Shown here piece by piece: positions 17,273-30,810 of a stretch of 64,000 bases of DNA. The stretch comes from an uncultured Methanosarcinales archaeon. Lineage in GTDB: Archaea > Nanobdellota > Nanobdellia > Woesearchaeales > JAGWAF01. Below the pieces are notes generated by a model. That model saw only the letters and a program-made list of their open reading frames with translations, did no database searches and had not been told where the DNA came from. Position numbers and translations under genes: made by a program. Each line of letters opens with the position of its first letter. The first letter of the stretch is position 1. The DNA lies in assembly GCA_964414985.1 (NCBI GenBank), contig CAYPXA010000003.1, forward strand, positions 5,055-69,054, written 5' to 3'.

Positions 17273-19096
17273 CTAATTTTTTCTCTTGCTTTTTGCCTTA
17301 TTCCTTTTTCCAGGCTTAGCTTTTGCAGCAGGATTGCGCTTATTTCCTGCTGATGCAAGCCTTCCAAGAACAAATCCTATGCCCAGGCCTATGAGGAGCA
17401 TTCCTATAATCTGCCTGTCAATTCTTCCAATGCTAATCAGCTTCTGAATGCTGAACCCCTCTGTTTTTTCAAAGTAAAATTCAAAGCTGCTTAACTCCAT
17501 TGCATATTCAGAATAGATTATTGCAGCTGACTCATCTTCTCCTGCGAGAGCCTTTGCATATTCAAGGTATGAATACCCCATTATAGGAAAAATTCCCTCG
17601 TTCTGCTGCTCGATAACTACCTTTTCTGCAGCTCTGATTTTCTGGCTTAAAATAAGGCTTAGCGCGTCTTTTTCAACACCAATAAGCCCGAGAATTGCAT
17701 TGGCTTCTGCCTTTGCCTTGCTTGCCTTGTATGTGCACATCTCAAAATTTCCATTCCGCTGGTCCTTCTTTGCGCTCTCAATGCCCTTCCTTGTGTCTGA
17801 AAGTGTGCCGTCAAAATAGAAGTTGACATAATTGAAGCGCTCTTCAGCCTCTGAAATCTTTATGCTGCACGCCTCTGCAAGAGTCTCATTGTTTATCTCA
17901 AAATCCTGGCCTTCAAGCCCAAAAAAATAGCTCCAGGTGTATGCTGAAAAAAGCCTTTCTTCGCCGTAAGCAAGCCAGTATGCAGATTTTTTCCTGTCTC
18001 CAATGTCCTTTTCAACATTAGACCTTGTTTCTGCAGCCTCATCAACCCTCTCCTTTGAAATCATGTAAGCCTGGATGTCTGTTATTGTCTTAATTTCCTT
18101 TGAGCTTAAGCCTTCATCTACCTTTGCTATCTCTCTTTCAAGCTTCTCAACCAATTCCATTGTCCTGTTTTCTGAAAAGTTTTTCAGGAAGTAAATCATT
18201 GACCTGTACTCAAGGTTTGCCCTGAAGCAGTAGGATGCAGCAGTGTAATAATCATGGTTTTCAAAAGACTTCATTGCTTTTGCAGTGCTGTTCACAGCTT
18301 CTTTTTCAGAATCTGCCATGAACTCCTCGTATTGTCCTGGTGGAATTGAAGGCGATTCAAGATACTCCTTCTGGAGGGATTCGCTTCTGCTGCAAAGCAT
18401 TTCTGCAAGCTCCTTCATTATGCTTTCATACTCGCTGCTTGCCTTAAGCTCGCCTTTATCCTCCGCTGGCTTAATTCCTGTGAACTCAAAAAGTGCATCA
18501 TCAAGGCTTGCAACACCTATAAGCTCAATGCCCATTTCTTCTGCAATTATGCTGGCATTTGAAGTGTTTGATACAATCTCCCATTCAGGCACAAGGACCT
18601 TTGAAATTCCCGCTTTTGCAGCAGCATCAATCTTTTCATTCACACCGCCGACAGGCCCGATAAGCCCTCCTGAATTTATTGTGCCTGTAATCGCAATTCC
18701 GTCCTTAAGCTTCAGGTCTTCAAGCATTGCAGAGGTAAGGACTGCAGCTGCAGCCCCTGCGCTCGGCCCGCCTACAAGAGAGCTTTCAGCCTTTATTGTG
18801 TAAATAAAGTCATACGCCCCGCATTCAGTTTTTGAGTGCTTGCATGCAAGCTGCTTTGCAAACCTCATTGACATCTGGGTGTCAAGCTTTGACATTGGGT
18901 ATGTGTTTACAAAAACCCTTCCAGACCCTTTGATTATCTCGAGGCTAAGGTCTGCAACGCTTCCTGAAAGGCTGCCGTCCTCCAGCTCTGAAACTGCAAG
19001 GAGCTTTATCCTTCCTTCTGTTGTGATTGCTGCAGCGCACTGGGCAGTCAAAACTGCCAGAACAAACATTGCTGCAAAAAAAACGCCCTTATTCAT
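17273..19096 (-). CDS. Secreted/membrane-anchored Lon-like S16 serine protease domain protein
   Basis: Signal peptide MNKGVFFAAMFVLAVLTAQCAAA. Lon proteolytic-domain motifs GGPSAGAAAAV (catalytic Ser) and KAGISKVLVP (catalytic Lys). A roughly 380-aa helical C-terminal region. Terminal TM helix plus basic tail AKAKPGKRNKAKSKRKN. Confidence 0.7.
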   Translation of the reverse strand: MNKGVFFAAMFVLAVLTAQCAAAITTEGRIKLLAVSELEDGSLSGSVADLSLEIIKGSGRVFVNTYPMSKLDTQMSMRFAKQLACKHSKTECGAYDFIYTIKAESSLVGGPSAGAAAAVLTSAMLEDLKLKDGIAITGTINSGGLIGPVGGVNEKIDAAAKAGISKVLVPEWEIVSNTSNASIIAEEMGIELIGVASLDDALFEFTGIKPAEDKGELKASSEYESIMKELAEMLCSRSESLQKEYLESPSIPPGQYEEFMADSEKEAVNSTAKAMKSFENHDYYTAASYCFRANLEYRSMIYFLKNFSENRTMELVEKLEREIAKVDEGLSSKEIKTITDIQAYMISKERVDEAAETRSNVEKDIGDRKKSAYWLAYGEERLFSAYTWSYFFGLEGQDFEINNETLAEACSIKISEAEERFNYVNFYFDGTLSDTRKGIESAKKDQRNGNFEMCTYKASKAKAEANAILGLIGVEKDALSLILSQKIRAAEKVVIEQQNEGIFPIMGYSYLEYAKALAGEDESAAIIYSEYAMELSSFEFYFEKTEGFSIQKLISIGRIDRQIIGMLLIGLGIGFVLGRLASAGNKRNPAAKAKPGKRNKAKSKRKN

Positions 19097-19206
19097 AGGG
19101 TTATGCTTCCAGCCGAGTTATTTAAGCTTTTTGATTGGCCTGGCTGTGAACAAAATAAGGGCCAGCTGCGTTTGATGCAGTCTAATTCACTGTGCTCTTT
19201 TATTTT

Positions 19207-19226
19207 TTAGCCATAATTATGGCTAA
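19207..19226 (+). promoter_or_regulatory. Perfect 20-bp palindrome TTAGCCATAATTATGGCTAA immediately upstream of TATA box of RHH gene (putative operator)
   Basis: Exact reverse-complement symmetry. It is followed by AAATATTTATATATTA (TATA-like, about 19233-19248) 22 nt before the ATG at 19270. Confidence 0.5.
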
Positions 19227-19269
19227 ATTTAGAAATATTTATATATTAGGCATTACAAAATTATGAACT

Positions 19270-19434
19270 ATGGTCCAGAATGAGGTAAGGGTAACGCTTT
19301 CAGCAGAGATGAAGGAAAGGCTTTTTGCAAGAGCCAAATCGCTCGGCATTAAGCCTACTGAGTACATAAGAAGCCTTATCATCGAGGATTTCAAGCCTGA
19401 TGCTGCAAGGCTTGAGCTTAGGAAAATCAGGTAA
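19270..19434 (+). CDS. Ribbon-helix-helix (CopG/Arc/MetJ-like) DNA-binding protein, 54 aa (not in ORF track)
   Basis: Translation MVQNEVRVTLSAEMKERLFARAKSLGIKPTEYIRSLIIEDFKPDAARLELRKIR. A beta-strand RVTLSAEM is followed by two helices, which is the typical RHH pattern. Confidence 0.55.
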   Translation: MVQNEVRVTLSAEMKERLFARAKSLGIKPTEYIRSLIIEDFKPDAARLELRKIR

Positions 19435-19513
19435 ATAATCAGCTAGGCAAACAATCAGTCGGGTAAATAATCATTCAAAAAGTCTGGCAAAAAATCAGCC
19501 AGAAAAAAATCAG
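19425..19513 (+). promoter_or_regulatory. Array of six (A)AATCAG(C/T) direct repeats spaced 12-25 nt between RHH gene and first pilin gene
   Basis: AATCAG at 19425, 19437, 19453, 19493 and 19508. Variant AATCAT at 19468. Shine-Dalgarno-like AAGAGGTG at 19521 precedes the TTG start at 19534. Confidence 0.45.
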
Positions 19514-19533
19514 TCAAAAAAAGAGGTGCTGTC

Positions 19534-19959
19534 TTGAAAAGATTAATTTGCGCTTCTGCAAAAGCGCAGGTGGCAATGGAATACCTAATCATTATAGGCT
19601 TTGTTGCCATAGTCACAATCCCACTCATTATCATTTTTGAGACAAACTCAAAGGACACTACAGACGAAATATCTTCTGCCCAGGTATACCAGATATCAAA
19701 GAGGATTGCAGACGGAGCAGAGACAGTATACTATCTGGGAGAGCCTTCAAGGCTTACAATAAAAGCATACCTGCCCGACAAAATAAGCCAAATCTCAATA
19801 GGCAGCCACGAAATCTCATTCAAAATGAGGAGAGGCAGCATTGAGGATGACATTGTGGTATACACTCCCATCAATATTTCAGGAAACCTCTCCAAAACCC
19901 AGGGCGTCCATTACATAAGCATTGAGAGCAGGGGGGGATATGTTTGGGTTTCAGGATAA
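19534..19959 (+). CDS. Class-III signal peptide (type IV pilin-like) protein 1
   Basis: N-terminus MKRLICASAKA|QVAMEYLIIIGFVAIVTIPLIIIF. Charged n-region, Q at +1, E at +5, then a roughly 20-aa hydrophobic stretch. Confidence 0.65.
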   Translation: MKRLICASAKAQVAMEYLIIIGFVAIVTIPLIIIFETNSKDTTDEISSAQVYQISKRIADGAETVYYLGEPSRLTIKAYLPDKISQISIGSHEISFKMRRGSIEDDIVVYTPINISGNLSKTQGVHYISIESRGGYVWVSG

Positions 19960-20354
19960 GCAAAACTTTTTTTGGAAAGTCGCAGGTTGCGATGGAATTT
20001 GTAATGCTTGTCATGCTGGCATTCATGATAATGGCTGTTTTTTCAGTCATTGCAAGGGACAGGATGATGGACCTAAGGCAGGAAGAAGAGTATGCATATC
20101 TTCAGGATGTTGTTTCATACGTCAATTCTGAAATACTGATTGCATCAAATGTTGAAGACGGCTATTCAAGGCAGTTTTCAATACCTTCAACACTCAACGG
20201 AGTAATCTACAACATCTCATTTTCGCAGGGATACATAACTGCAGAGTCAGTTCACCATGAGTATGCTGCAAGGACTGCGGAAGTTGAGGGAAGCATTGCA
20301 AAAGGCCAAAACACAATATCAAAGAAAAATGGGACTGTCTATATCAATAGCTGA
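19944..20354 (+). CDS. Class-III signal peptide pilin-like protein 2
   Basis: N-terminus ...TFFGKS|QVAMEFVMLVMLAFMIMAVFSVIA. Overlaps the previous gene by 16 nt. Confidence 0.6.
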   Translation: MGFRISKTFFGKSQVAMEFVMLVMLAFMIMAVFSVIARDRMMDLRQEEEYAYLQDVVSYVNSEILIASNVEDGYSRQFSIPSTLNGVIYNISFSQGYITAESVHHEYAARTAEVEGSIAKGQNTISKKNGTVYINS

Positions 20355-20826
20355 TTCATCAGGCAGAAAGGCTCAGGTGTGGTACATCGACTTTATGGTA
20401 GGCCTGCTTATAATGATAACAGCAGCAGTCATCTACTTTAATTTCTACGGCAATCTTTCAGATGATTCTGAATCAGACTGGCAGGAGCTTATTATAGACT
20501 CAAAATCAATAAGCTCTGCGCTTATGTCATCAGGAAGCCCGCCTGGCTGGAATGCATCAAATGCAAGCTCAATAGGAATTACAGACGGAAACTACAGGAT
20601 AAACACAACCAAGTTTGAATACCTCAAATCAATGGAATATGCAGATGCAAAGGCTGCATTCAAGACCCGGTTTGATTTTCACATTTTCATAAAAGGCGCT
20701 GACAACAGCATAACTGATGAATACGGGATAAACTCAACAAGCCCTAAGCTTCTTGTCCAGACTGCAAGGTTTGCAATCTACAATTCAACAATCCAGAGGG
20801 TGGTGCTGCACTTATGGAAAAATTAG
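20329..20826 (+). CDS. Pilin-like protein 3 (start revised to internal ATG)
   Basis: MGLSISIADSSGRKA|QVWYIDFMVGLLIMITAAVIYF. The track ORF 20257-20826 overlaps the upstream gene by about 100 nt, so the ATG at 20329 is the likelier start. Confidence 0.5.
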   Translation: MGLSISIADSSGRKAQVWYIDFMVGLLIMITAAVIYFNFYGNLSDDSESDWQELIIDSKSISSALMSSGSPPGWNASNASSIGITDGNYRINTTKFEYLKSMEYADAKAAFKTRFDFHIFIKGADNSITDEYGINSTSPKLLVQTARFAIYNSTIQRVVLHLWKN

Positions 20827-23800
20827 GCAGATTTTGCAGCAGGCTTTGCGCTAGGCATGGCAGGAAGGCAATATTCTTCACTCTCGACGCGCTTATAGCC
20901 TCAGGCATACTTCTCATAGGCCTTGTTCTTATTTCCTCAACCCATATAAACAGGCAGCCTACAGTGCACTTAAGCTATCTGTCATCAGACCTGATAGGAA
21001 CGCTTTCGGAGCTGAAGGTTGGCGAGATTGAGAATGATTATGTTGAGCAGCTGATTGCATCAGGCAGCATTGCAAGGCTGAACAACACAATTGCAGAGCA
21101 GATAGGCGAATTCTGGGCTGAAGACAGCATAGGCCTTGCTGAAAACCTTACAATGGAAATAATAGGAGATTCAATCCCCCAGAACTACGGCTATGCTGTC
21201 CTTGTAAACGGCGAATCAATACACTCAAGAAGCACAGGGCTCAACAACTCCCTGATAAGCAGCAGGAAAATAATTTCAGGATATGCAAAGCTTAGGCCTG
21301 TTTTCGGATTCACCTCAAAAGCATTCCTTACAGGAATAAAGAGCAGGAAATCATCATCAATAGCTTATTTTGGGGGATTTGTAGGCGAGGGAAACATAAC
21401 TGCAAAAATTGAGCTTCCCCAGAACATCACCAACATAACAGGAGTAATGCTTGAAGCATTGACAGGAACAGACGCAAAGTTTTACATCAACGGCCAGTAC
21501 TCCGGCTCTTTCCCAAAAGGCTCAGGCAACGGCTCATACATAAAGCCGAGCACCTGGAACATTGAAGAGCAGTACTGGAGCAGCCTCCACGGAGGGATGA
21601 ATAACTTTTCTGTAAGGTTTGAGCAGATAAACGAAAACTTCACTGCAAGCGGCCCAAAATACATTGGCGGAGGATATTTCAAGGTTTCATACATCACTCC
21701 TGACAACAAAGAGCTCGGAGTATCATATGCCGGAGGCACTGCTTCATCAAAATCCTGGCTTCCTGGAATAGACGGGCTTGTAAACCTTTACACCTCAATT
21801 TATGTGCCTGGCAACTTGAGCTCAATGAGTGTTTACCTTGACTTTGAAAGCAACTACACAACATACCTGACTATAGGCGGGACAACAGTGTATGAGGCAA
21901 AGGCAAACGGCTCTACAATTGTCAACATTTCAAATTCGCAGCTTGCCTCAATTTTCTCGAGTGATGGGGTGAGCTACAGCAGCATGAGCATGGAAACAAT
22001 TCCTGTAAGGCTTGGCCTGAAAAACATAACAAAAACAGGAGCTATGCTTGATTCAGTGCTTGTAACAGATGTAAGCGGAAGCATGGACTGGAGAATGGAC
22101 CAGGACAATGTTGACGGCACTGTAAGGCAGTGCAGCAGCAGCGACCTTAATCTAAATAGCACTCAACGGCTTAGCGTTGCAAAATGCGCTGGAAAAGATT
22201 TTGTTGACACAATACTTGGAACAGAAGGACCTCTTGTAGGCCTTGCAAGCTACCAAAGCTCAACATCCAGCACACTCTGGCTGACAAACAGCTCTGAAGA
22301 CCTTTATGATGAGATTGACAGCTATAATGCAGAAGGAGGAACATGCATATGCTGCGGAGTAAACAGCGCAGTCGAGATGCTGAAAAATGACTCCCAGGTA
22401 ATGATTGTTCCAAGAAGGGCATCTTCCTGGAGATATGATGACAATGACTTAAGTTCAGACCCTTCAGGCTGGACAAGCTTAGGGTTTTCAGATTCCTCTT
22501 GGAGTCAGGGAAGGGCTGCGCTCGGCAACGGCTACAGCGGGCTTAATACTGTGATAAGCAAGTATGAAGGATATTATTATTTCAGGAAAAAATTCAATCT
22601 CACAAATGCTTCAGACATCTCTTTTGCAAGGCTTTATGTTTATTCTGACGACGGCGCAAGCATCTACATAAACGGCAACCTTGTTGACAATGATATTCTC
22701 AACACTCACACAGCATCCTACTGGAACAGGCAGGTCAACATAAACACATCAATCCTGAATGACGGAGAAAACATAATTGCAGCCAAAGTCAGGAACAGGA
22801 GAAGCTGCTTTTTCACATGGTGCTGGGATACAAATGTTGCGTTTGACCTTGAGCTTGCAGGAAGCAGCACACAGCTTGCAGAGTCTGCGAAGAAAAAAGC
22901 GATGATAGTAATGACTGACGGAGAGGCAAACCAGGAGTGCGCTTTGCAGGGAACTACTGGAGACCTTAACAATGACGGGTATTCAGACACTGCAAAGGAT
23001 GATGCAATAAAAGCTGCATGCGATGCCTATAATGAATATGGGATTACAGTCTACACTGTTGGATTTGGGATAGGCGCAGATGATGACACTTTGGAATATA
23101 TGGCAAACTGCACTGACGGAGCGTACTTCAGCTCTTCAAATTATGAGGAGCTTAAAGAAACATACTTGATTATAGCAAATGAGCTGATTACATATTCTGA
23201 AACCCAGCGGTTCAACCAGACAATAACAGCAGAAACATCATTAAGCCCTGAATCATTCATAGAATTCAGCTACACTCCTGAAATTCCTCAGATGTCATAC
23301 GGAGAAGTTACTGTGACTGCATCAGGCGAGATTTTTGGAAACACAATCAGCAAAGGCTCAATATTCATTCCTGAAGGCGCAGTGCTTTCAGAGCTTTCTG
23401 CAACATCATATTCTGCAGACAAGTGGACAGACACAGTATTTGTCGAGAACAGCGCAGGAAAATCTGGAGTTTTCAACCTTAGCGATTTCGGAAGCTTTTA
23501 CCGGGACCTTGGCGATGCCTTCAAAGTAAGCATTCCAACATCAATTATAATTCCTGAAGAGCAGAACAACATAACTGTGCGCACAGGAATAAGCCCTGCA
23601 AACACAACAGGAGGCTCTGAATACAACAGGCTCATCTACACCTTAAGGATAGGCGGACTGCTTGATTACGGCGGAGTTTTTTCATATTCAGAAGGATGCA
23701 CATGGAGCCTTGAATTCGAGGACGGAACTTCAGGAGAGGTTAATGTGCCTTTAGATTATTCAGGAAACCAGACATGCTATTACTCAAATGCAACCTACGG

Positions 23801-23975
23801 AGAAGATGATGCTCTTGACGATGCAGCCTACAGGCTTTACAGCAGGCTTGACCTTGACTCAAACGGAAAGCTGGACATAAAGCTTGATGAAAACAACCTT
23901 GAGGCAGACACAATCTCAATTTCAGACGTCCCTTCGCTTTGGGGGCCTGCAGTTGTAGAGGTGAGAATATGGTGA
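20814..23975 (+). CDS. Large (1053 aa) putative pilus-tip adhesin: pilin-like N-terminal TM segment plus vWA domain and PA14-like lectin domain
   Basis: N-terminus GRKAIFFTLDALIASGILLIGLVLI. vWA MIDAS VLVTDVSGSMDW...MTDGEANQ...YTVGFG. PA14-like YYYFRKKFNLTNASDISFARLYVYSDDGASIYINGNLVDNDI. Confidence 0.6.
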   Translation: MEKLGRFCSRLCARHGRKAIFFTLDALIASGILLIGLVLISSTHINRQPTVHLSYLSSDLIGTLSELKVGEIENDYVEQLIASGSIARLNNTIAEQIGEFWAEDSIGLAENLTMEIIGDSIPQNYGYAVLVNGESIHSRSTGLNNSLISSRKIISGYAKLRPVFGFTSKAFLTGIKSRKSSSIAYFGGFVGEGNITAKIELPQNITNITGVMLEALTGTDAKFYINGQYSGSFPKGSGNGSYIKPSTWNIEEQYWSSLHGGMNNFSVRFEQINENFTASGPKYIGGGYFKVSYITPDNKELGVSYAGGTASSKSWLPGIDGLVNLYTSIYVPGNLSSMSVYLDFESNYTTYLTIGGTTVYEAKANGSTIVNISNSQLASIFSSDGVSYSSMSMETIPVRLGLKNITKTGAMLDSVLVTDVSGSMDWRMDQDNVDGTVRQCSSSDLNLNSTQRLSVAKCAGKDFVDTILGTEGPLVGLASYQSSTSSTLWLTNSSEDLYDEIDSYNAEGGTCICCGVNSAVEMLKNDSQVMIVPRRASSWRYDDNDLSSDPSGWTSLGFSDSSWSQGRAALGNGYSGLNTVISKYEGYYYFRKKFNLTNASDISFARLYVYSDDGASIYINGNLVDNDILNTHTASYWNRQVNINTSILNDGENIIAAKVRNRRSCFFTWCWDTNVAFDLELAGSSTQLAESAKKKAMIVMTDGEANQECALQGTTGDLNNDGYSDTAKDDAIKAACDAYNEYGITVYTVGFGIGADDDTLEYMANCTDGAYFSSSNYEELKETYLIIANELITYSETQRFNQTITAETSLSPESFIEFSYTPEIPQMSYGEVTVTASGEIFGNTISKGSIFIPEGAVLSELSATSYSADKWTDTVFVENSAGKSGVFNLSDFGSFYRDLGDAFKVSIPTSIIIPEEQNNITVRTGISPANTTGGSEYNRLIYTLRIGGLLDYGGVFSYSEGCTWSLEFEDGTSGEVNVPLDYSGNQTCYYSNATYGEDDALDDAAYRLYSRLDLDSNGKLDIKLDENNLEADTISISDVPSLWGPAVVEVRIW

Positions 23976-24940
23976 TTTCCAGGATGAGGTCAAGCAAAAA
24001 GGCGATATTCTTTACATTCATTGCAATAATGCTGATTGCAACAGCGCTTTTCTCATTTACAGTCCATTCAAGGTACAGCTTGAAGTCCAAGGCGCTTGTC
24101 ATAGAAACAAGGGTAAGCACAATGAACAGCTTCATGGCAGACATAGACAAGGACATAGAAAGAGGGCTTTTCATCTCATCGCACAGGTCTGTTTTATCTC
24201 TAATTGACTGGGTTTCGTCAGAAGGAAAATTCCTGAATGACACAGAATCCGGATTTGCAGAGCTGCTTCTGAACGGAACTCTTTACGGAGAGCAGCAGTC
24301 TTTGATGGAATCAACCACATTTCCAGACTGGGCTTCAAAGATGCAGCAGCAGGGAAGCAGGATAAACCTTCAGATAAGCATGGCTGTCCAAAATGTGTCT
24401 ATTGCACATTCAGATCCCTGGACTTTGAATGTACTCCTTGAAACTTTGGTTTATGTGAAAGATTCAACAGGCCTTGCAGAATGGAACACAACAAAATCAA
24501 TTTCTGCATTAGTCTCAATACTGGGCATGGAAGACCCGATTTATGCGCTTAAGACAGGCGGAAAAGCTGCAAACAAATTCAATATTACCCCATTTGAGCA
24601 TTTTGTTGAAGGAAATGACACTTCAAACCTTCAGAGCCATGCAGAGCACTCTTATTACATCAGCTGGAGCATGGCTCCCAGCTTCCTTATGAGGCTTGAA
24701 GGCAATTTCAGCACTTCAGAATATGGAATAGAAAGCCTTGTCAACCTGCAGGAGCTGATTGACCAGGGAATCCAGGTGCAGCAGCGCAGCATTGTTGACC
24801 ACATATACTGGTCAAACAGGACAATTTCATCATCTTTGATTTCAGGAATGCCTTCCTGGTTCAGGCTTGACAATGAGAACAATCCGGAAGAAGGCATGAC
24901 CAGGCTTGAGCGCTATGAAGCAGAGGACCTTGCATCATGA
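23969..24940 (+). CDS. Pilin-like / pseudopilin protein sharing KKAIFFT N-terminal motif with the adhesin
   Basis: ATG overlaps the adhesin stop (ATGGTGA). N-terminus MVISRMRSSKKAIFFTFIAIMLIATALFSF. Confidence 0.5.
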   Translation: MVISRMRSSKKAIFFTFIAIMLIATALFSFTVHSRYSLKSKALVIETRVSTMNSFMADIDKDIERGLFISSHRSVLSLIDWVSSEGKFLNDTESGFAELLLNGTLYGEQQSLMESTTFPDWASKMQQQGSRINLQISMAVQNVSIAHSDPWTLNVLLETLVYVKDSTGLAEWNTTKSISALVSILGMEDPIYALKTGGKAANKFNITPFEHFVEGNDTSNLQSHAEHSYYISWSMAPSFLMRLEGNFSTSEYGIESLVNLQELIDQGIQVQQRSIVDHIYWSNRTISSSLISGMPSWFRLDNENNPEEGMTRLERYEAEDLAS

Positions 24941-25009
24941 GCAGCATGCCAACGCAAAGATTTTTAAAGTATTGGGAGAATATAAATGCAAAAGAGGTGA
25001 ATGGCATAG

Positions 25010-26164
25010 ATGGGAGATTGCTCGCTGATTGAGACAGGAGTAGACAAGCTTGTAACCCTTATTAGGAAGAACAAAAAGCTTTCTGTTGCAGAGGCTGCTA
25101 AGCAGCTTGGAGTTTCAACAGTTGTTGTTGAAGAGTGGGCTGACTTTCTTGAGGAAGAGGGGATAATAAGCATAGAATACAAGTTTACAACCCCCTATCT
25201 TGTTGAACGGCTTCTTACAAAGGATGAGCTTGTTAAAAAGGAGAAGGAATTCGGCGGCAAGAAGGAGGCTTTTGTAAGAAAGGCAGAGGTTGCGCTTGCG
25301 CTTCTTGACAGGGAAAGCGAGACATTCCAGAAAATACGCGAGCAGTTTGACGGGCTTAAGAAAGACTTAGGCACTGAAATCAAGAAGGTAAAGGGAGACT
25401 TAAAAGACCTTGAGAAATATGAGGAGCTGAAGAACAGGCTTGACCAGCAGATTCAGAGCCAGCAGAAGGAGTTCAAGGAAAGCATATCACAGGTTGAATC
25501 TCAGATTTCAAGGGAGCAGAAAAAGTATTCTGAAATACTCAAGGATATTGACCTTGAGGAAAAGCAGCTTGACAAGGAGAAGCTTGAGGCGCTTTCAATA
25601 AGGGAGCGCGAAAACCTCCTTATGCAGAAGCTTGCAGAATTCAGGAAAGGAATCGAGAAAATTGAGAAGAGCATAGAGTCTGAAGACAAGGTTGTATCCA
25701 GCTCTGAAGAGCACATCTCAAGGCTTAAGGAGCTTGCAGATTCTGTCAAGCAGAGCGTAGAGGAAAGAAGAAGCGAGCTTGAAAAGCTGTTTGAGCAGAA
25801 GAAAGAGCAGGAGAAGAACATTGCAAGGATGCAGGAAGAGATACTTGCAAAGGCAAAGGAGAAGAAGAGCGAGATAGATGCAAGAGTCCAGGATGGCCAG
25901 GGAGCATCTCACCAGTTTTCAGTATTCTTTGACAAAAAGGCAAGGGTCGAGGCAATGCTCAAAAAGCTTAACGACGAAAGGAACGACCTTGAGAAGGAGC
26001 TTATTCACCTTATACAGAAGGCAAAGGCGTTCAGCATAGCATCAAAGTCAGCTGCAGTTGGAAAGCACATGTCAGAGCTGAAGAAGACATTTGATTCAAT
26101 AGACAAGAAAAAAGGCCTGTTTGAGACAGAGCTGAAAAAGCTTGCAAGCTTCCTGAAAAGCTGA
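25010..26164 (+). CDS. Winged-helix (N-terminal) plus long coiled-coil protein embedded in pilus locus
   Basis: N-terminus LSVAEAAKQLGVSTVVVEEWADFLEEEGIISIE is HTH-like. The remaining roughly 300 aa show heptad-rich K/E/L coiled coil. Confidence 0.5.
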   Translation: MGDCSLIETGVDKLVTLIRKNKKLSVAEAAKQLGVSTVVVEEWADFLEEEGIISIEYKFTTPYLVERLLTKDELVKKEKEFGGKKEAFVRKAEVALALLDRESETFQKIREQFDGLKKDLGTEIKKVKGDLKDLEKYEELKNRLDQQIQSQQKEFKESISQVESQISREQKKYSEILKDIDLEEKQLDKEKLEALSIRERENLLMQKLAEFRKGIEKIEKSIESEDKVVSSSEEHISRLKELADSVKQSVEERRSELEKLFEQKKEQEKNIARMQEEILAKAKEKKSEIDARVQDGQGASHQFSVFFDKKARVEAMLKKLNDERNDLEKELIHLIQKAKAFSIASKSAAVGKHMSELKKTFDSIDKKKGLFETELKKLASFLKS

Positions 26165-26196
26165 TGCTTGATTAATATCTAAACTAATATTCCAAA

Positions 26197-27810
26197 ATGG
26201 CAAAAAAAAGAGGCGTTAAAAAGGTGCATGGCAGAGCCAGGCATCACCTGCAAAAGCGCAGCAGGCCCAAGGCTTCAAGGCATCCTGCGCGAAAGAGTGC
26301 AGCTGCAGGAAAGCAGTCTGAACACCAGCACTTTGGCAACGCAAAAGTCATAGACTCATACAAATTTACATCCCTAAACATGCCTATTTCTGTAAGGATT
26401 TTTATGGAGCAGGATGACTTTGTCCCAAGATACGAGCTCTCAATCAGCACAATAAGCAGAAACACTGAAATAATTCTTGAAAGGATAAGAAAGGAGCTTG
26501 TCCACAAAGTCAGCCTTGGAATGGTAGACATAACGCAGGCAAAGCGTTCAGGAATAATAGAAGACAAGTTCAGCGAGACAATAAAGGACCTTGTCCAGAA
26601 ATACTTTCCAGACATAGACGAGCAGACTTCAAACTTTCTTTCATCATACCTTATCCAGAAGTCATTAGGACTAGGCCAGATTGAAATACTTATGGACGAT
26701 GAGGCTCTTGAGGAGATTGCAGTAAACTCTGCAGAGGAGCCTGTATGGGTCTACCACAGAAAGCACGGCTGGCTCAAGACAAATATCAGAGTTGAAAGCG
26801 AGGAAAAGATAAGGCACTATGCATCAATGATAGGCAGGAAAGTCGGAAGGCAGATTACAATACTTAATCCTCTTATGGACGCAAACCTTGACACAGGCGA
26901 CAGGGTAAACGCCACTCTTATGCCAATTTCAAATGTCGGAAACACAATAACACTTCGAAAGTTTGCGACAAAGCCATGGACAATAACTTCATTCATAAAA
27001 GCAGGAGCGATATCAGCTGCTGCTGCAGCGCTCATATGGCAGGCAGTGCATTACGAGATGTCTGCGCTGATTGCAGGAGGAACTGCTTCAGGAAAGACAT
27101 CCATGCTCAACGTTGTTGCGAACTTCTTTCCCCCAAACCAGAGGATAATCTCAATTGAAGACACAAGGGAAATAAAGCTTCCTGCGTTTCTGCACTGGCT
27201 TCCGATGGTCACAAGGCTTGCAAATCCTGAAGGAAAGGGAGAGATAAGCATGCTTGACCTGCTTGTAAACTCCTTGAGGCAGAGGCCTGACAGGATTATA
27301 GTCGGAGAAATAAGGAAGAAAAGGGAAGCTGAAGTCCTTTTTGAGGCAATCCACACAGGCCATTCAGTCTATGCAACAGTCCACGCAAACGATGTCAAGG
27401 AGACAATAACAAGGCTTACAAACCCTCCAATTGAAATTCCAAAGTCAATGCTTCCTGCAGTATCGCTTATAATTGTGCAGTACAGGAACAGGAGGACAGG
27501 CAACAGGAGGACATTCCAGATTGCTGAAATACTGCCTGACTCATCTGCAAACATACTTATGCAGCACAACACAAAGACTGACAAACTCGAAACAGTAAGC
27601 AAGAGCAAGGTGCTTACAAAAGAGCTTGAGCTTTACACAGGCACATCAGCAGCTGCATTTGCAAAGGAAGTTGCTGAAAAAGAGGCAGTCCTGAAATGGC
27701 TTGTGAAGCAGGACATAGACGGAGTTGACAATGTAGGCAGGGTAATTGCAGAGTACTACACAAACAAGGAGAACCTAATGAAGTATGTGCGCCACAACAG
27801 AAAAATGTAG
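26197..27810 (+). CDS. Type II/IV secretion-system ATPase (VirB11/FlaI/TadA-like) with basic N-terminal extension
   Basis: Walker A GGTASGKTS. Walker B and Asp-box RIIVGEIR. His-box AIHTGHSVYATVHAN. The first roughly 60 aa are K/R/H-rich (MAKKRGVKKVHGRARHHLQKRSRPKASRHP). Confidence 0.8.
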   Translation: MAKKRGVKKVHGRARHHLQKRSRPKASRHPARKSAAAGKQSEHQHFGNAKVIDSYKFTSLNMPISVRIFMEQDDFVPRYELSISTISRNTEIILERIRKELVHKVSLGMVDITQAKRSGIIEDKFSETIKDLVQKYFPDIDEQTSNFLSSYLIQKSLGLGQIEILMDDEALEEIAVNSAEEPVWVYHRKHGWLKTNIRVESEEKIRHYASMIGRKVGRQITILNPLMDANLDTGDRVNATLMPISNVGNTITLRKFATKPWTITSFIKAGAISAAAAALIWQAVHYEMSALIAGGTASGKTSMLNVVANFFPPNQRIISIEDTREIKLPAFLHWLPMVTRLANPEGKGEISMLDLLVNSLRQRPDRIIVGEIRKKREAEVLFEAIHTGHSVYATVHANDVKETITRLTNPPIEIPKSMLPAVSLIIVQYRNRRTGNRRTFQIAEILPDSSANILMQHNTKTDKLETVSKSKVLTKELELYTGTSAAAFAKEVAEKEAVLKWLVKQDIDGVDNVGRVIAEYYTNKENLMKYVRHNRKM

Positions 27811-27930
27811 CGCATTCCTTAATTTATAATAATTAATAATCAGGAAAGGGTGGTTTGAATCAGGTCAAATATATTTGAGAGGATTGCAAAGTCATTCCCA
27901 GCCCTCGGGCTGAAGCTAAGGCAGTCTGGA

Positions 27931-28674
27931 ATGAAATACACGCCTGTTGAATTTGTAAGGCGCGCAGCATTCACCTCATTCTACATGACCACAATGATAA
28001 TCTTCCTTCTTGGAGCGCTTTTCATGAAGCTTGATATACTTTTGAGGGTGCTCTATTTTGTATTCCCCCTGCTTTTTGTAGGGATGTTTTTTTACTTTAT
28101 GAAGCTGCCAGAGGCAAAGATTATCAGGCGCGAAAAGGACATTGACAAGGAGATAGTGTTTGCAGGAAGGTTCCTTGTTGTCGAGCTTGAAAGCGGAGTG
28201 CCATTGTACAACGCGCTTGTCAATGTCTCTAAAAGCTACCCTACAATAGGAAAGGCAATAAACGAGATAATTGAGGATGTAGACCTTGGAGCAACAATCG
28301 AAGAGGCGATTGAGGAGGCAATTGAGCTCACGCCCTCGCAGGATTTCAGGAAGCTGCTCTGGCAGATAATGAATTCACTCAAGACAGGCGCAGATGTTTC
28401 ATCATCCCTCGGAGCAGTTGTTGACCAGATTACAAGGGAGCAGATAATTGCTGTAAAGGAATACGGCAGGAAGCTAAACCCCCTTGCAATGTTCTACATG
28501 ATGATTGCAGTAATAGTGCCATCATTGGGAGTTACAATGCTGATAGTGCTTTCAAGCTTTCTTTCATTTGAGATGGGGCTTTCATCACTTATGGTGCTTG
28601 TGCTTGCCATAGCCTTAATCCAGTTCATGTTCATAGCAATAATCCGGTCGTCAAGGCCTTCAGTTGAAATCTAA
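27931..28674 (+). CDS. TadB/FlaJ-like membrane protein (single T2SSF domain)
   Basis: N-terminal TM helices, a cytoplasmic T2SSF-like domain (LYNALVNVSKSYPTIGKAINEII...) and C-terminal TM helices. Confidence 0.65.
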   Translation: MKYTPVEFVRRAAFTSFYMTTMIIFLLGALFMKLDILLRVLYFVFPLLFVGMFFYFMKLPEAKIIRREKDIDKEIVFAGRFLVVELESGVPLYNALVNVSKSYPTIGKAINEIIEDVDLGATIEEAIEEAIELTPSQDFRKLLWQIMNSLKTGADVSSSLGAVVDQITREQIIAVKEYGRKLNPLAMFYMMIAVIVPSLGVTMLIVLSSFLSFEMGLSSLMVLVLAIALIQFMFIAIIRSSRPSVEI

Positions 28675-28675
28675 A

Positions 28676-29812
28676 ATGGAAAATCAGGCAAAAAATCCAG
28701 GAGAGAAGAAAAAGACAGGCTGGATAAGGCAGGAGGCTGAAAAGCTGACCCATTTTAAAGAGCATTACGAGCGCGCCAAGAAGAAAGAGAAGGAGATTAA
28801 GGAGAAGCGCAAGGATAAGATAAGGCAGCAGCGCAAGTACATGCTTAGGAACTACATTGAAAAGGCAGGATTAAGCATAAAGGAGGAAAGGGTTACAAAG
28901 ACTCTTTTCAATTTCTGCATTATAATCAACCTTATTATTTCCGCATACCTGATTTACTTTTTTTCATTTGAGTCTGATTCAAACCTTGTTTTTGTAGTCA
29001 TAGTCATGGCAATAGTATGGGCGCTGATTTTTTTTGGAGTGCTTTTCCTTGTCTGGCTGCTGTTTTACCTGATGCTTGACTTTAGGATATTCCAGAGAAA
29101 GACAAGCATAGAGGATGTCCTTGCAGACTTCCTCCAATTGACATCTGCAAACATCAGGGCTGGAATGCCTATTGACAGGGCGCTGTGGTTTTCAGTCAGG
29201 CCTAGGTTCGGGGTTCTTGCAAACGAGATTGAGATTGTTGCAAAGGAGACAATGAGCGGAAAGGACCTTGAGACTGCGCTTACAGACTTCACAAAAAAGT
29301 ACGACTCGCCTCTTCTTAAAAGGTCGATGAGCCTGCTTATTGAAGGCCTTAGGGCTGGCGGAGAAGTTGGGGAGCTCCTCAACAAGATTTCAACAAACAT
29401 ATCAGAATCAAGGATAATGAAGAAGGAGATGTCAGCAAACGTAACAACTTATGTAATCTTCATAACCTTTGCGACAGTTGCTGCAGCGCCTGTGCTTTTT
29501 GCGCTCTCAAACCAGCTCCTGCACATAATACATTCAATAGTCTCAACAATATCGCTTCCTTCCGGAGGTGTTGCAGGCTTTGGCGCTTCTTTCACAACTC
29601 TTGCAATAAAGCCTTCAGACTTCAGGCTTTTTTCAGTCATAATGCTTACAGTAACCTCATTTTTTTCAGCTGCAATAGTTGCAATCATAAGAAGGGGCAG
29701 CGTAAAGGCAGGCCTGAAGTACATTCCGTCATTCATAATCACTGCAGTAATCCTGTTTTACATTTCAGACTTCTTTTTGGGAAAAGTGCTGGGGTCTATG
29801 CTTTTGTCGTAG
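28676..29812 (+). CDS. TadC/FlaJ-like membrane protein (second T2SSF domain), K/E-rich N-terminus
   Basis: ATG 1 nt after the upstream stop (the track start at 28664 is TTG). T2SSF-like segment ANIRAGMPIDRALWFSV...GELLNKIS. Multiple TM helices. Confidence 0.65.
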   Translation: MENQAKNPGEKKKTGWIRQEAEKLTHFKEHYERAKKKEKEIKEKRKDKIRQQRKYMLRNYIEKAGLSIKEERVTKTLFNFCIIINLIISAYLIYFFSFESDSNLVFVVIVMAIVWALIFFGVLFLVWLLFYLMLDFRIFQRKTSIEDVLADFLQLTSANIRAGMPIDRALWFSVRPRFGVLANEIEIVAKETMSGKDLETALTDFTKKYDSPLLKRSMSLLIEGLRAGGEVGELLNKISTNISESRIMKKEMSANVTTYVIFITFATVAAAPVLFALSNQLLHIIHSIVSTISLPSGGVAGFGASFTTLAIKPSDFRLFSVIMLTVTSFFSAAIVAIIRRGSVKAGLKYIPSFIITAVILFYISDFFLGKVLGSMLLS

Positions 29813-29817
29813 CGCTT

Positions 29818-29832
29818 CAAAACATTTATATA
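29818..29832 (+). promoter_or_regulatory. BRE/TATA promoter AAAACATTTATATAT upstream of pilin gene 29854
   Basis: An identical 15-mer recurs upstream of the next pilin gene (30295-30309). Confidence 0.5.
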
Positions 29833-29853
29833 TTTGAATTTTAATTTTAGGGT

Positions 29854-30282
29854 ATGGCCAAAAAAGGACAGGCAGCAATGGAGTTTTTGATGACCTATGG
29901 CTGGGCTATACTTGCAATTCTTGCAGCAATAGGCGCGCTTGCTTATTTCGGTGTTTTGACTCCAACAAAGTTCCTGCCTGAAAAGTGCGTTTTTCCGCAG
30001 GGAATGGCGTGCCTTGACTTTCAGGTTGAGGCTTCAGATGCAAAGTTCGTGATACAGCCTGCTTTTGGCGCAGACGCATTCATTTACAATGCAACAATCG
30101 CAGAGTGCGATGCAGTCTTTATTGACAGGATTGTGGACAGCCAGCTTATGCTCAACTTTACGAACTGCGACAACGGAATTGAGGGAGACCAGTTCAGGGA
30201 AAAGCTTGTTGTGACATATTCTTTAAGGGGAAGCCCGATTGTCAAGCAGATGGATGCAGACGTAACCACGAATGTAAGATAA
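29854..30282 (+). CDS. Epd-like type IV pilin (class-III signal peptide, KGQ motif)
   Basis: MAKKG|QAAMEFLMTYGWAILAILAAIGALAYFGVL. Q+1/E+5. Resembles methanogen Epd pilin signal peptides. Confidence 0.75.
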   Translation: MAKKGQAAMEFLMTYGWAILAILAAIGALAYFGVLTPTKFLPEKCVFPQGMACLDFQVEASDAKFVIQPAFGADAFIYNATIAECDAVFIDRIVDSQLMLNFTNCDNGIEGDQFREKLVVTYSLRGSPIVKQMDADVTTNVR

Positions 30283-30294
30283 ATCTTTTCTGTC

Positions 30295-30309
30295 AAAACA
30301 TTTATATAT
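30295..30309 (+). promoter_or_regulatory. BRE/TATA promoter AAAACATTTATATAT upstream of pilin gene 30370
   Basis: Same motif as 29818. Downstream SD-like AAAAGAGGTG at about 30351. Confidence 0.5.
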
Positions 30310-30369
30310 CAGTATATTAATTTGTATATCAGAACAATCAATCTATACATAAAAGAGGTGAATAGCAAA

Positions 30370-30810
30370 ATGTTCAAAAAAGGACAGGCAGCAATGGAGT
30401 TCTTGATGACCTACGGCTGGGCAATCCTTGTTGTGCTTGCAGCAATCGGCGCTCTTGCATATTTCGGAGTATTGAGCCCTGACAGGTTTCTGCCAGAGAA
30501 GTGCACACTGCCATCAGGCATGGCGTGCTTAGACTTTACAGCAAGCTCAAGCCAGATTCAGTTGGTTATCCAGAACAGCGGCGGATTTGACATGAATAAT
30601 GTAAACGTGTCACTTGACGTTGAAGGCGGAAGTGTTGTTTCATGCTCACCAGCAGACGACTCAACATTGACTGATTCAGAGCAGGACACATTTACCTGCA
30701 CAGGCACATTTGCATCCGGAAAGCTTAAGGCTGACTTGAATGTTGCATATGTCAATGCACAGACACAATTGAGCCATACCAAAGCCGGCGAGCTTATTGC
30801 AAAGATATAA
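30370..30810 (+). CDS. Epd-like type IV pilin paralog (class-III signal peptide, KGQ motif)
   Basis: MFKKG|QAAMEFLMTYGWAILVVLAAIGALAYFGVL. N-terminal 35 aa nearly identical to the preceding pilin. Confidence 0.75.
   Translation: MFKKGQAAMEFLMTYGWAILVVLAAIGALAYFGVLSPDRFLPEKCTLPSGMACLDFTASSSQIQLVIQNSGGFDMNNVNVSLDVEGGSVVSCSPADDSTLTDSEQDTFTCTGTFASGKLKADLNVAYVNAQTQLSHTKAGELIAKI

What the first reader, a model, noticed from the sequence alone, without database searches (positions are those of the whole stretch)
19207..19513. RHH mini-gene with perfect 20-bp palindromic operator and six AATCAG direct repeats leading into the pilin operon
TTAGCCATAATTATGGCTAA (perfect dyad) sits just 5' of a TATA box for a 54-aa CopG-like RHH protein. 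RHH proteins typically bind such dyads and autoregulate. Six (A)AATCAG(C/T) repeats at 12-25-nt spacing fill the gap to the first pilin gene. Together this looks like a dedicated transcriptional switch for pilus expression.
Basis: seen in the sequence. Interest (0 to 1): 0.55.

Follow-up and report, generated by a model that had tools for sequence, protein, structure and literature searches.

The report
Self-regulating mini-repressor heading archaeal pilus operon
A tiny, conserved DNA-binding protein gene with its own conserved palindromic binding sites sits at the head of a pilus operon in a Woesearchaeota-like archaeon, a textbook-style self-regulating promoter, whereas the AATCAG repeats behind it are a species-specific tandem duplication that no relative shares.

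Summary
There is a perfect 20-22 bp palindrome (19206-19227), a TTTATATA box (19238-19245), a 54-aa ORF (19270-19434), and five AATCAG plus one AATCAT (19425-19513) before a pilin gene.

The ORF is a real gene. It has 20 homologues, pN is 0.15 against a saturated pS of 0.82, and the predicted fold is ribbon-helix-helix (RHH).

In 12 independent loci the dyad core CCATAATTATGG lies at two fixed positions. O1 is about 53 bp upstream of the ATG, upstream of BRE/TATA. O2 is about 8 bp upstream, between TATA and the inferred leaderless start. The dyads also accompany the RHH gene where no pilus genes follow. The predicted DNA-facing strand residues Q3, E5, R7 and T9 are invariant. Autoregulation by the RHH protein is therefore well supported computationally, though binding was not tested.

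The pilin and the roughly 11.5-kb type IV pilus operon appear to be co-transcribed. The evidence is a conserved Shine-Dalgarno sequence plus TTG start, a 9-11 nt gap in five relatives, and no T-tract.

The AATCAG array is statistically real but absent from every relative. It looks like nested tandem duplication of the stop-codon/A-rich leader and is not shown to be part of the switch.

Verdict: an ordinary mechanism and a new member of a known kind.

The parts
19206..19227 (.). Operator O1. A perfect 22-bp palindrome with core CCATAATTATGG at 19211-19222. Its centre is 53 bp upstream of the ATG, upstream of BRE/TATA.
   Evidence: I5. A homologous dyad with centre at -52/-53 occurs in 10 of 12 loci with at most 3 mismatches. 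The exact core occurs once per locus and only at this promoter.
19231..19245 (+). Archaeal core promoter. A BRE-like AGAAATA is followed by the TATA box TTTATATA (19238-19245).
   Evidence: In all 12 loci the TATA box starts at -30 to -32 from the ATG of M[AV]Q, and is preceded by a conserved GAAA. Assigning it as BRE/TATA rests on established knowledge of archaeal promoter geometry. No transcript data are available.
19255..19266 (.). Operator O2, degenerate here: ACAAAATTATGA, 3 of 12 mismatches. Its centre is 9 bp upstream of the ATG, between TATA and the inferred transcription start.
   Evidence: The same position carries a perfect CCATAATTATGG in L005, L007, L014, L015 and L016, and a copy with 1 mismatch in L012.
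19270..19434 (+). RHH mini-gene, 54 aa, probably translated from a leaderless mRNA.
   Evidence: It has 20 homologues at 58-74% full-length identity. pN is 0.15 against pS 0.82. The AF2 model (pLDDT 78) gives only RHH proteins among the top Foldseek PDB hits. The Pfam NikA-like match has E 4.6e-4, below the cut-off.
19391..19415 (+). Hairpin TCAAGCCT-N9-AGGCTTGA. It lies inside an 8-codon insertion (PDAARLEL) in the RHH tail that is specific to this lineage.
   Evidence: I17; present in the MFE and centroid structures; the insertion is absent from all 20 homologues. Its function is unknown.
19421..19522 (+). Lineage-specific tandem array with a 15-16 nt unit, GGnAAAnAATCAGyy. It has 5 exact AATCAG, 1 AATCAT and 1 decayed copy (AAAGTCTGG).
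   Evidence: It is absent from all relatives and identical in three other assemblies of the same population. RNA structure is not significant, with z -1.3 and -1.5.
19516..19536 (+). A-rich leader, Shine-Dalgarno GAGGTG (19523-19528) and the TTG start of pilin 1 (19534).
   Evidence: AAAAAGAGGTG followed by a short spacer (5-8 nt) and then TTG is conserved in all 11 loci that carry the pilin.
19534..20826 (+). Three overlapping genes for pilin-like proteins with class-III signal peptides (19534-19959, 19944-20354, 20329-20826).
   Evidence: The N-terminal motif QVAMEYLIIIGF is conserved in the relatives.
20814..30810 (+). The rest of the pilus operon. It comprises a 1053-aa VWA protein, a 333-aa protein, a 384-aa HTH/coiled-coil protein, a PilB-type ATPase (26197-27810), two T2SSF proteins (27931-29812) and two small proteins.
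17273..19126 (-). Divergent 607-aa Lon_C-like protease gene. Its own leaderless-type promoter has the TATA box TTAAATAA on the minus strand at 19119-19126.
   Evidence: Synteny is conserved in L003, L004, L005 and L019. The TTATTTAAG block is conserved in the relatives.

Best explanation
Overall reading. Positions 19206-19434 form a self-contained autoregulatory cassette: operator O1, then BRE/TATA, then operator O2, then a leaderless 54-aa RHH gene. In this Woesearchaeota-like archaeon it provides the promoter for an 11.5-kb type IV pilus operon.

Inferred mechanism. RHH dimers insert their N-terminal beta-ribbon (Q3, E5, R7, T9) into the major groove of the CCAT/ATGG half-sites. A dimer of dimers would occupy each 12-20 bp dyad. 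O1 and O2 lie 44 bp apart, about four helical turns, on either side of the TATA box. Occupying O2, helped by cooperative contacts with O1, would block TBP/TFB/RNA polymerase assembly. The protein would thereby repress its own synthesis and that of the co-transcribed pilins.

This genome's variant. Here the strong site is O1 and O2 is weak. This predicts repression only at higher RHH concentration.

The AATCAG array. This 94-nt stretch is a recent, lineage-specific expansion by nested tandem duplication of the segment containing the stop codon and the A-rich leader. It lengthens the unstructured intercistronic spacer ahead of the pilin Shine-Dalgarno sequence. It is not a conserved regulatory element.

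Shown versus inferred. Shown: gene conservation, the fold, operator conservation and position, synteny, and non-conservation of the array. Inferred: DNA binding, the sign of regulation, the leaderless start, and co-transcription.
For: (1) The gene is real. It has 20 homologues. Synonymous sites are saturated (pS 0.82) while pN is 0.15.

(2) The fold is RHH. Residues Q3, E5, R7 and T9 alternate with hydrophobic V6, V8 and L10 and are invariant, and the G26 turn is invariant. The top Foldseek PDB hits are all RHH proteins: Rv0298, CopA_SO, Arc, CopG, PutA, ORF56, NikA, AmrZ and SvtR, with TM 0.5-0.7 and probability 0.9-1.0. Of 55 relatives, 25 hit the NikA-like family and others hit RHH_1/3/5 or CopG_antitoxin.

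(3) The operator is conserved. The core CCATAATTATGG is centred at -52/-53 and -8/-9, and TATA starts at -31/-32, in 12 loci. Neutral sites between these loci are randomised. The exact core occurs once per locus, only at this promoter, and once in the 64-kb window.

(4) The dyads travel with the RHH gene, not with the pili. L017 and L018 keep dyads close to this core (1-3 mismatches). L021 and L023 keep the O1-TATA-O2 layout with altered dyads. None of the four has pilus genes downstream. In L023 both operators carry the same symmetric change, to ACATAATTATGT, together with an E5-to-V change in the strand.

(5) The genes form an operon. SD plus TTG is conserved and lies only 9-11 nt after the RHH stop in 5 loci. 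There is no T-run of 3 or more in 19421-19533. The genes that follow overlap or are closely spaced on the same strand.

(6) The array arose by duplication. An exact 12-mer, GGTAAATAATCA, is repeated 32 nt apart and includes the stop codon. TRF finds periods of 16 and 39 nt. The last unit resembles the ancestral 3' end plus leader seen in L006.
Against: No binding or expression data exist. Another factor could bind the dyads.

The window protein is below the curated threshold of every Pfam and NCBIfam RHH model. Foldseek E-values are weak, at 0.03 or higher. The beta-strand is not formed in the monomer model.

The strong site in this genome lies upstream of BRE, a position used by some archaeal activators. 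The sign of regulation here is therefore uncertain.

For the array, the AATCAG core is perfectly kept in 5 units while the flanks are only about 55-70% alike. This could mean selection on the hexamer rather than neutral duplication.
Confidence: 0.7

Rival explanations
1. The AATCAG array is a functional cis element. It could be a row of binding sites, on DNA or on the intercistronic RNA, for a regulator that sets the RHH:pilin expression ratio. Candidates are the RHH itself, the operon's 384-aa HTH/coiled-coil protein, or an RNA-binding protein. It could also carry a secondary pilin promoter (TAAATAAT at 19432 and 19464).
For: The cluster is far beyond chance. The hexamer core is invariant in 5 units while the flanks diverge. 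The region is unstructured and A-rich, as expected for a protein-binding leader. The array is stable across four assemblies.
Against: It is absent from all 10 related pilus loci, whose spacers are 9-49 nt. AATCAG bears no resemblance to the conserved operator. Spacing is irregular (12-24 nt) and not in helical phase. No other array exists in 64 kb, and the few other pairs of the hexamer are at chance level. The internal block duplications of 32 and 39 nt explain the pattern without invoking selection.
Confidence: 0.15
2. The RHH protein acts here mainly as an activator or anti-repressor of the pilus promoter, through the strong upstream site O1, rather than as an autorepressor.
For: In the window, L004, L006 and L019 the perfect or near-perfect dyad lies upstream of BRE/TATA and the core-promoter site is degenerate. 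By established knowledge, upstream sites are typical of archaeal activators such as Ptr2 and of some Lrp-type regulators.
Against: In 6 other pilus loci the strong site lies between TATA and the start, a repressing position. Small single-domain RHH proteins at the head of their own operon are repressors in the studied cases: CopG, Arc, ORF56 and the antitoxins (for the fold relatives; their roles are from established knowledge). The weak O2 is retained at its exact position, which argues that it is used.
Confidence: 0.15
3. The small protein is an orphan or degenerate toxin-antitoxin or plasmid-type RHH, related to antitoxins or NikA, that merely sits next to the pilus genes. The dyad would then be a relic unrelated to pilus control.
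For: The best profile hits are NikA-like and RelB-like antitoxin models. More distant relatives lie beside AbiEii, MNT/HEPN and ParE genes.
Against: There is no toxin or relaxase gene next to it. The arrangement of divergent Lon-like gene, RHH, then pilins is kept in all the pilus loci despite saturated synonymous divergence. The pilin starts 9-11 nt after the RHH stop behind a conserved Shine-Dalgarno sequence, so the two are one transcription unit.
Confidence: 0.07
4. The dyads are bound by a different, unlinked transcription factor, and the RHH protein has another role.
For: No binding data exist. The operon also encodes an HTH protein.
Against: The dyads co-occur with the RHH gene in at least four unrelated gene contexts that lack the HTH protein and the pilus genes. 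The operator core is invariant wherever the DNA-facing strand residues are invariant, and it changes in L023 where E5 changes.
Confidence: 0.08

Closest known systems
CopG (RepA) of plasmid pMV158 and ORF56 of the Sulfolobus plasmid pRN1
   Same: Each is a 45-56 aa single-domain RHH protein encoded as the first gene of an operon. Each binds a (pseudo)palindrome at its own promoter and represses itself together with the co-transcribed downstream gene. Both are among the fold hits: 1ea4, 1b01 and 2cpg for CopG, 3ft7 and 2k9i for ORF56. A weak sequence match to CopG was also found, with E 0.16.
   Different: The downstream cargo here is a chromosomal archaeal type IV pilus operon, not a replication gene. 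There are two operators that bracket the TATA box at a fixed 44-bp distance. The window protein shows no significant sequence match to RHH_1/CopG.
aCcr1/2/3 of Sulfolobales (small archaeal RHH repressors; PMC13199686)
   Same: They are roughly 55-60 aa archaeal RHH proteins that recognise short palindromic boxes and repress transcription.
   Different: The aCcr proteins are global cell-cycle regulators with more than 100 targets and a different motif, A(T/G)G(A)TA(G)A(T/G)TACN. The present protein appears to have only its own promoter as a target within 64 kb. Homology was not tested directly.
AmrZ (Pseudomonas RHH regulator required for type IV pilus twitching)
   Same: It is an RHH-fold regulator linked to type IV pilus function, and it is a fold hit (3qoq).
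   Different: AmrZ is bacterial, larger, global, and not encoded in the pilin operon. The resemblance is one of function only.
RHH antitoxins of type II toxin-antitoxin systems (CopA_SO, Rv0298, RelB-like, ParD) and NikA
   Same: They give the best fold and profile similarities. They show operon-first autoregulation at palindromic operators. More distant relatives of this family sit in toxin-antitoxin or defence neighbourhoods.
   Different: There is no toxin or relaxase partner, and the downstream gene is a pilin. Scores are below the curated thresholds.
papB-papA of the E. coli P-pilus operon
   Same: A small regulator gene lies immediately upstream of the major pilin gene and is co-transcribed with it, with an intercistronic region between them.
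   Different: The protein fold, the domain of life and the promoter machinery are all unrelated. This comparison comes from memory and was not tested here.

Membership tests
Ribbon-helix-helix (MetJ/Arc/CopG) superfamily | An N-terminal beta-strand in which polar (DNA-facing) and hydrophobic residues alternate, followed by two helices joined by a glycine-containing turn. | tested here: met
   The strand reads Q3-N-E5-V-R7-V-T9-L. Q3, E5, R7, T9, L10 and G26 are invariant in 21 sequences. The AF2 model has helices at 12-25 and 29-53.
Ribbon-helix-helix (MetJ/Arc/CopG) superfamily | Structural similarity to solved RHH domains. | tested here: met
   The top 27 Foldseek PDB hits are all RHH proteins, with TM 0.5-0.7 and probability 0.9-1.0. 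E-values are only 0.03-0.4, because the domain is short and the model is a monomer.
Ribbon-helix-helix (MetJ/Arc/CopG) superfamily | A significant match to a curated RHH sequence model. | tested here: inconclusive
   The NikA-like match scores 20.7 bits against a cut-off of 27. The RelB-like match scores 18 bits against 50. Among 55 relatives, 25 hit NikA-like, with a best E of 1.6e-7.
Ribbon-helix-helix (MetJ/Arc/CopG) superfamily | Dimerisation through an antiparallel beta-ribbon, and sequence-specific DNA binding. | not testable with these tools
   This needs EMSA, footprinting or a co-structure.
Autoregulated operator-promoter cassette | The regulator's recognition sequence lies at or overlaps its own core promoter and is conserved with the gene. 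| tested here: met
   The dyad core lies at -53 and -8 in 12 loci, despite saturated synonymous divergence and different downstream genes.
Type II toxin-antitoxin RHH antitoxin | An adjacent co-transcribed toxin gene. | tested here: not met
   The downstream gene is a class-III signal-peptide pilin, and the upstream gene is a divergent Lon_C-like protease.
NikA-like relaxosome accessory protein (PF21983) | A score above Pfam's gathering threshold, and association with a relaxase or oriT. | tested here: not met
   The score is 20.7 bits, below 27. None of the operon's neighbouring genes that were scanned is a relaxase.
Archaeal type IV pilus (T4P) operon | A PilB/T2SSE-family ATPase together with a PilC/TadC (T2SSF) membrane protein. 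| tested here: met
   T2SSE matches at E 2.4e-36, and T2SSF matches at 1.8e-17 and 6.9e-14, all above their cut-offs.
Archaeal type IV pilus (T4P) operon | Pilins carrying a class III signal peptide. | tested here: inconclusive
   The Class_IIIsignal match has E 0.01 and 16.2 bits, below the cut-off of 23.7. The motif AQVAMEYLIIIGF is conserved across loci. No prepilin peptidase was looked for.

The most novel reading that the evidence does not exclude
Two more novel readings are not excluded by the evidence.

First, the RHH/dual-operator cassette may be a portable, self-contained promoter module that DPANN archaea recruit to head unrelated operons: pili, small membrane peptides, and genes next to defence systems. 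Within the pilus clade, evolution would then tune expression by swapping which of the two fixed positions carries the strong operator. The positions are -53, upstream of BRE, and -8, in the core promoter. Every one of the 10 pilus loci has exactly one strong and one weak site.

Second, in this species the AATCAG array may be an added functional layer that uncouples pilin output from repressor output, either as an RNA-protein platform or as a secondary promoter.
Probability: 0.15. Interest if true: 0.5.

Novelty: new member of a known kind. Interest (0 to 1): 0.3.

Why it matters
Nothing is known experimentally about gene regulation in Woesearchaeota or other DPANN archaea. Their pili are thought to mediate attachment to hosts or partners. 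This locus offers a compact and well-defined regulator, operator and promoter set for in vitro testing: a 54-aa protein, a 12-bp core motif and two fixed positions. It also gives a motif (CCATAATTATGG) that can be used to annotate the promoter and the true leaderless start of this gene family. The mechanism itself, autorepression by a small RHH protein at a palindrome, is textbook. The census of archaeal T4P loci that was consulted lists many associated regulators but no RHH protein (PMC4858521).

Tried and rejected
- **Rfam and tRNA scans.** Nothing was found in the window.
- **RNA structure of the array or leader.** It is not significant, with z -1.3 and -1.5. A riboswitch or attenuator reading was rejected.
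- **Genome-wide enrichment of AATCAG or AAATCAG.** There is none. The pair at 27838/27858 in the gap between the T2SSE and T2SSF genes, and a minus-strand trio at 28954-29029, are at chance level.
- **Other copies of the dyad in the window, which would indicate a regulon.** None was found. The only other match with at most 2 mismatches (11676) is within expectation.
- **An internal pilin promoter at the GATTTTAAAAG (EDFK) codons.** It is not conserved among the loci and was rejected.
- **Resemblance of AATCAGY to the WATCACW heptads bound by the RHH protein omega of inc18 plasmids** (from memory). Rejected because spacing here is 12-24 nt rather than contiguous 7-mers, and because the motif differs from the conserved operator.
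- **A recurrent duplication hotspot in relatives' spacers.** This is only marginal: 16 of 500 shuffles for L016, 33 of 500 for L014, and not significant in the others.
- **Sequence search of the PDB.** It gave only weak CopG and Arc matches, plus spurious lipocalin hits.
- **Scans of genome contigs and metagenome contigs.** They gave few extra loci, 1 and 5 respectively. L009 and L010 were too weak to use.
- **Regulation of the divergent Lon-like gene by O1.** This is unlikely, because the distance from O1 to that gene's TATA box varies among loci.

Full report
**What is there**

The window is archaeal-looking DNA with 43% GC. The nearest named relative of this locus is a Candidatus Woesearchaeota MAG.

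Between a divergent 607-aa Lon_C-like protease gene (17273-19096, minus strand) and a run of plus-strand genes, the sequence reads as follows:
- a perfect palindrome, TTTAGCCATAA|TTATGGCTAAA, at 19206-19227;
- a BRE-like AGAAATA followed by TTTATATA at 19238-19245;
- an ATG at 19270 that opens a 54-aa ORF ending at 19434;
- 99 nt of A-rich sequence;
- AAAAAAAGAGGTG followed by a TTG at 19534, which opens the first of three overlapping genes with class-III signal-peptide-like N-termini.

Downstream on the same strand lie a 1053-aa VWA protein, a 333-aa protein, a 384-aa HTH/coiled-coil protein, a PilB/T2SSE ATPase, two T2SSF proteins and two small proteins. Together these form an archaeal type IV pilus operon of about 11.5 kb.

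**Check of the observation**

The dyad is unique in the window even with 3 mismatches allowed, and no match appeared in 100 shuffles.

AATCAG starts at 19425, 19437, 19453, 19493 and 19508, and AATCAT at 19469. Spacings are 12, 16, 16, 24 and 15 nt. Shuffled windows never exceed 3 copies per 100 nt. In 20,000 shuffles of the region, no hexamer reached 5 copies. The hexamer is not enriched elsewhere in the window.

The actual repeat unit is longer than the hexamer. It is about 15-16 nt, GGnAAAnAATCAGyy.

**The ORF is a real RHH gene**

It has 20 homologues of about 50 aa. Their full-length identity to the window protein is 58-74%.

Over 42 aligned codons in 12 loci, the synonymous difference is saturated (mean pS 0.82) while pN is 0.15.

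Residues Q3, E5, R7 and T9 alternate with hydrophobic V6, V8 and L10, as expected for a DNA-reading RHH beta-strand. All four are invariant, as is the G26 turn.

The AF2 model (pLDDT 78) has helices at 12-25 and 29-53. Its best Foldseek PDB matches are exclusively RHH proteins: Rv0298, CopA_SO, Arc, CopG, PutA, ORF56 of pRN1, NikA, AmrZ and SvtR, with TM 0.5-0.7.

Sequence models only hint at the family:
- NikA-like at E 4.6e-4, below the cut-off;
- RelB-like antitoxin at 0.0025;
- CopG at 0.16 in the PDB sequence search.

Of 55 wider relatives, 25 match NikA-like. The wider family is small, with 125 clusters at E<=1e-3 among 1.8 billion representatives.

**The dyad is a conserved operator, and there are two of them**

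I anchored 12 independent loci on the ATG of M[AV]Q. The TATA box then starts at -30 to -32. Matches to CCATAATTATGG fall at two fixed places, with centres at -52/-53 (O1) and -8/-9 (O2), 44 bp apart.

Mismatches to the 12-bp core:

| Locus | O1 | O2 |
|---|---|---|
| window | 0 | 3 |
| L004 | 1 | 3 |
| L005 | 3 | 0 |
| L006 | 0 | 2 |
| L007 | >4 | 0 |
| L012 | 3 | 1 |
| L014 | 2 | 0 |
| L015 | >4 | 0 |
| L016 | 2 | 0 |
| L017 | 1 | 3 |
| L018 | 1 | 2 |
| L019 | 0 | 4 |

Every pilus-linked locus therefore has one strong and one weak site, and which position is strong differs between lineages.

Synonymous sites between these loci are saturated, so this conservation reflects constraint and not recency.

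The exact core occurs once per locus, always at this promoter, and once in the window.

The N-terminal 'MDM...' and longer extensions in database homologues are gene-calling artefacts. Their first ATG is the ATG of the O2 half-site. The TATA distance places the start of a leaderless mRNA at the second ATG. This is inferred from archaeal promoter geometry; no transcript data exist.

**The dyads follow the RHH gene, not the pili**

L017 (neighbour AbiEii) and L018 (neighbours MNT/HEPN) keep dyads close to this core, with 1-3 mismatches, but have no pilin downstream.

Two more distant relatives keep the O1-TATA-O2 layout with altered dyads:
- **L023** has two perfect palindromes, TTAACATAATTATGTTAA and TTACATAATTATGTAA, bracketing TTTATATA. 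The outer base pair is changed symmetrically, and strand residue 5 is V instead of E.
- **L021** has the whole cassette duplicated.

This is the best available computational argument that the RHH protein itself reads the dyad.

**Operon logic**

The pilin gene keeps AAAAAGAGGTG, a short spacer (5-8 nt) and TTG in all loci. In five loci this begins only 9-11 nt after the RHH stop codon. That leaves no room for a separate promoter.

The window's spacer has no T-tract.

Both first genes of the divergent pair, the RHH gene and the Lon-like gene, have TATA boxes about 30 nt before their ATG. Internal genes have Shine-Dalgarno sequences. This is the usual archaeal pattern of a leaderless first gene.

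Repression at this promoter would therefore control the pilins and probably the whole operon. To that extent 'a dedicated switch for pilus expression' is reasonable. The protein has no sensor domain, however, so simple negative feedback is the most economical reading.

**The AATCAG array**

No relative has it. The distance from the stop codon to the Shine-Dalgarno sequence is 9-11 nt in 5 loci, 37-49 nt in 5 loci and 94 nt here.

Four assemblies of the same population carry identical arrays.

Its internal structure is nested duplication:
- 16-nt units;
- an exact 12-mer, GGTAAATAATCA, repeated 32 nt apart, whose first copy contains the RHH stop codon;
- a 39-nt higher-order period.

The first AATCAG is the codon string AAA-ATC-AGG of the K/R-rich tail. 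The last unit plus leader resembles the ancestral 3' end seen in L006.

The RNA is unstructured.

The most likely reading is slippage-driven expansion of the stop-codon/A-rich leader segment. One caveat remains. The hexamer is perfectly retained while the flanks are only about 55-70% alike, so a lineage-specific function cannot be excluded. Possible functions are a protein platform on DNA or RNA, a spacer that uncouples pilin translation, or a secondary promoter at TAAATAAT. I give that about 15%.

**Comparison with known systems**

The cassette works like CopG of pMV158 or ORF56 of pRN1, where a small RHH protein is the first gene of an operon and represses at a palindrome. It also works like RHH antitoxins, and it resembles the small archaeal RHH repressors aCcr1-3.

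It differs in three respects:
- its cargo is a chromosomal DPANN type IV pilus operon;
- it has two operators bracketing TATA at a fixed 44-bp spacing;
- the strong operator position alternates between lineages.

It is not an antitoxin, because there is no toxin gene. It is not a demonstrated NikA or CopG family member, because it scores below the thresholds.

The 2016 census of archaeal T4P loci lists many associated regulators but no RHH protein.

**Verdict**

The RHH protein, its operator and the operon head are supported. The repeats as part of the switch are not. This is a new member of a known kind and of modest interest.

Noticed in passing
window 17273-19126 (minus strand): A 607-aa protein with an N-terminal signal peptide, a Lon_C (S16) protease domain and a C-terminal transmembrane anchor. 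It is transcribed divergently from the RHH/pilus operon, and this synteny is kept in L003, L004, L005 and L019. It has its own conserved leaderless-type promoter (TTATTTAAGC block at 19118-19127). It may be a pilus-associated extracellular protease.
   Followed up: partly
window 19391-19415: A perfect 8-bp stem with a 9-nt loop (TCAAGCCT...AGGCTTGA) inside the 3' end of the RHH ORF. It lies in an 8-codon insertion (PDAARLEL) that none of the 20 homologues has. Like the AATCAG array, this end of the gene is indel-prone in this lineage.
   Followed up: partly
L005 3001-3051; L007, L012, L014-L016, L019 (first two codons); L023 600-652: Database gene calls for the homologues start too early (MDM..., MANFEKIYIY..., MLILMEIF...). 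The extra ATG is part of operator O2, or of O1 in L023, and the TATA distance points to the M[AV]Q start.
   Followed up: yes
L021 1864-1902 and 1957-1995: The whole operator-BRE-TATA cassette is duplicated in tandem about 93 bp apart, upstream of a more distant RHH homologue. That homologue is followed by a 45-aa membrane peptide and a DUF1016/YhcG nuclease gene.
   Followed up: partly
L017, about 90-120 bp upstream of the RHH start: A 32-bp palindrome, AACCATAATTATATATATGTATAATTATGGTT, containing two operator-like cores. It adds a third site upstream of O1. The neighbouring gene is an AbiEii toxin.
   Followed up: no
window 27811-27930: A 120-nt gap inside the pilus operon, between the T2SSE and T2SSF genes. 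It contains a TATA-like TTTATAAT (27824) and two AATCAG copies (27838, 27858). The hexamer pair is at chance level, but the gap may hold an internal promoter.
   Followed up: partly
window 25010-26164: A 384-aa protein within the pilus operon. It has a weak N-terminal HTH match (HVO_A0114/HTH_11) and a long SMC-like coiled coil. It could be a second, operon-encoded regulator or a structural component.
   Followed up: no
window 19534; L004-L008, L012-L016, L019: The first pilin gene uses a TTG start in every locus (TTG AAr), 5-8 nt after GAGGTG. A non-ATG start conserved this well is unusual.
   Followed up: partly
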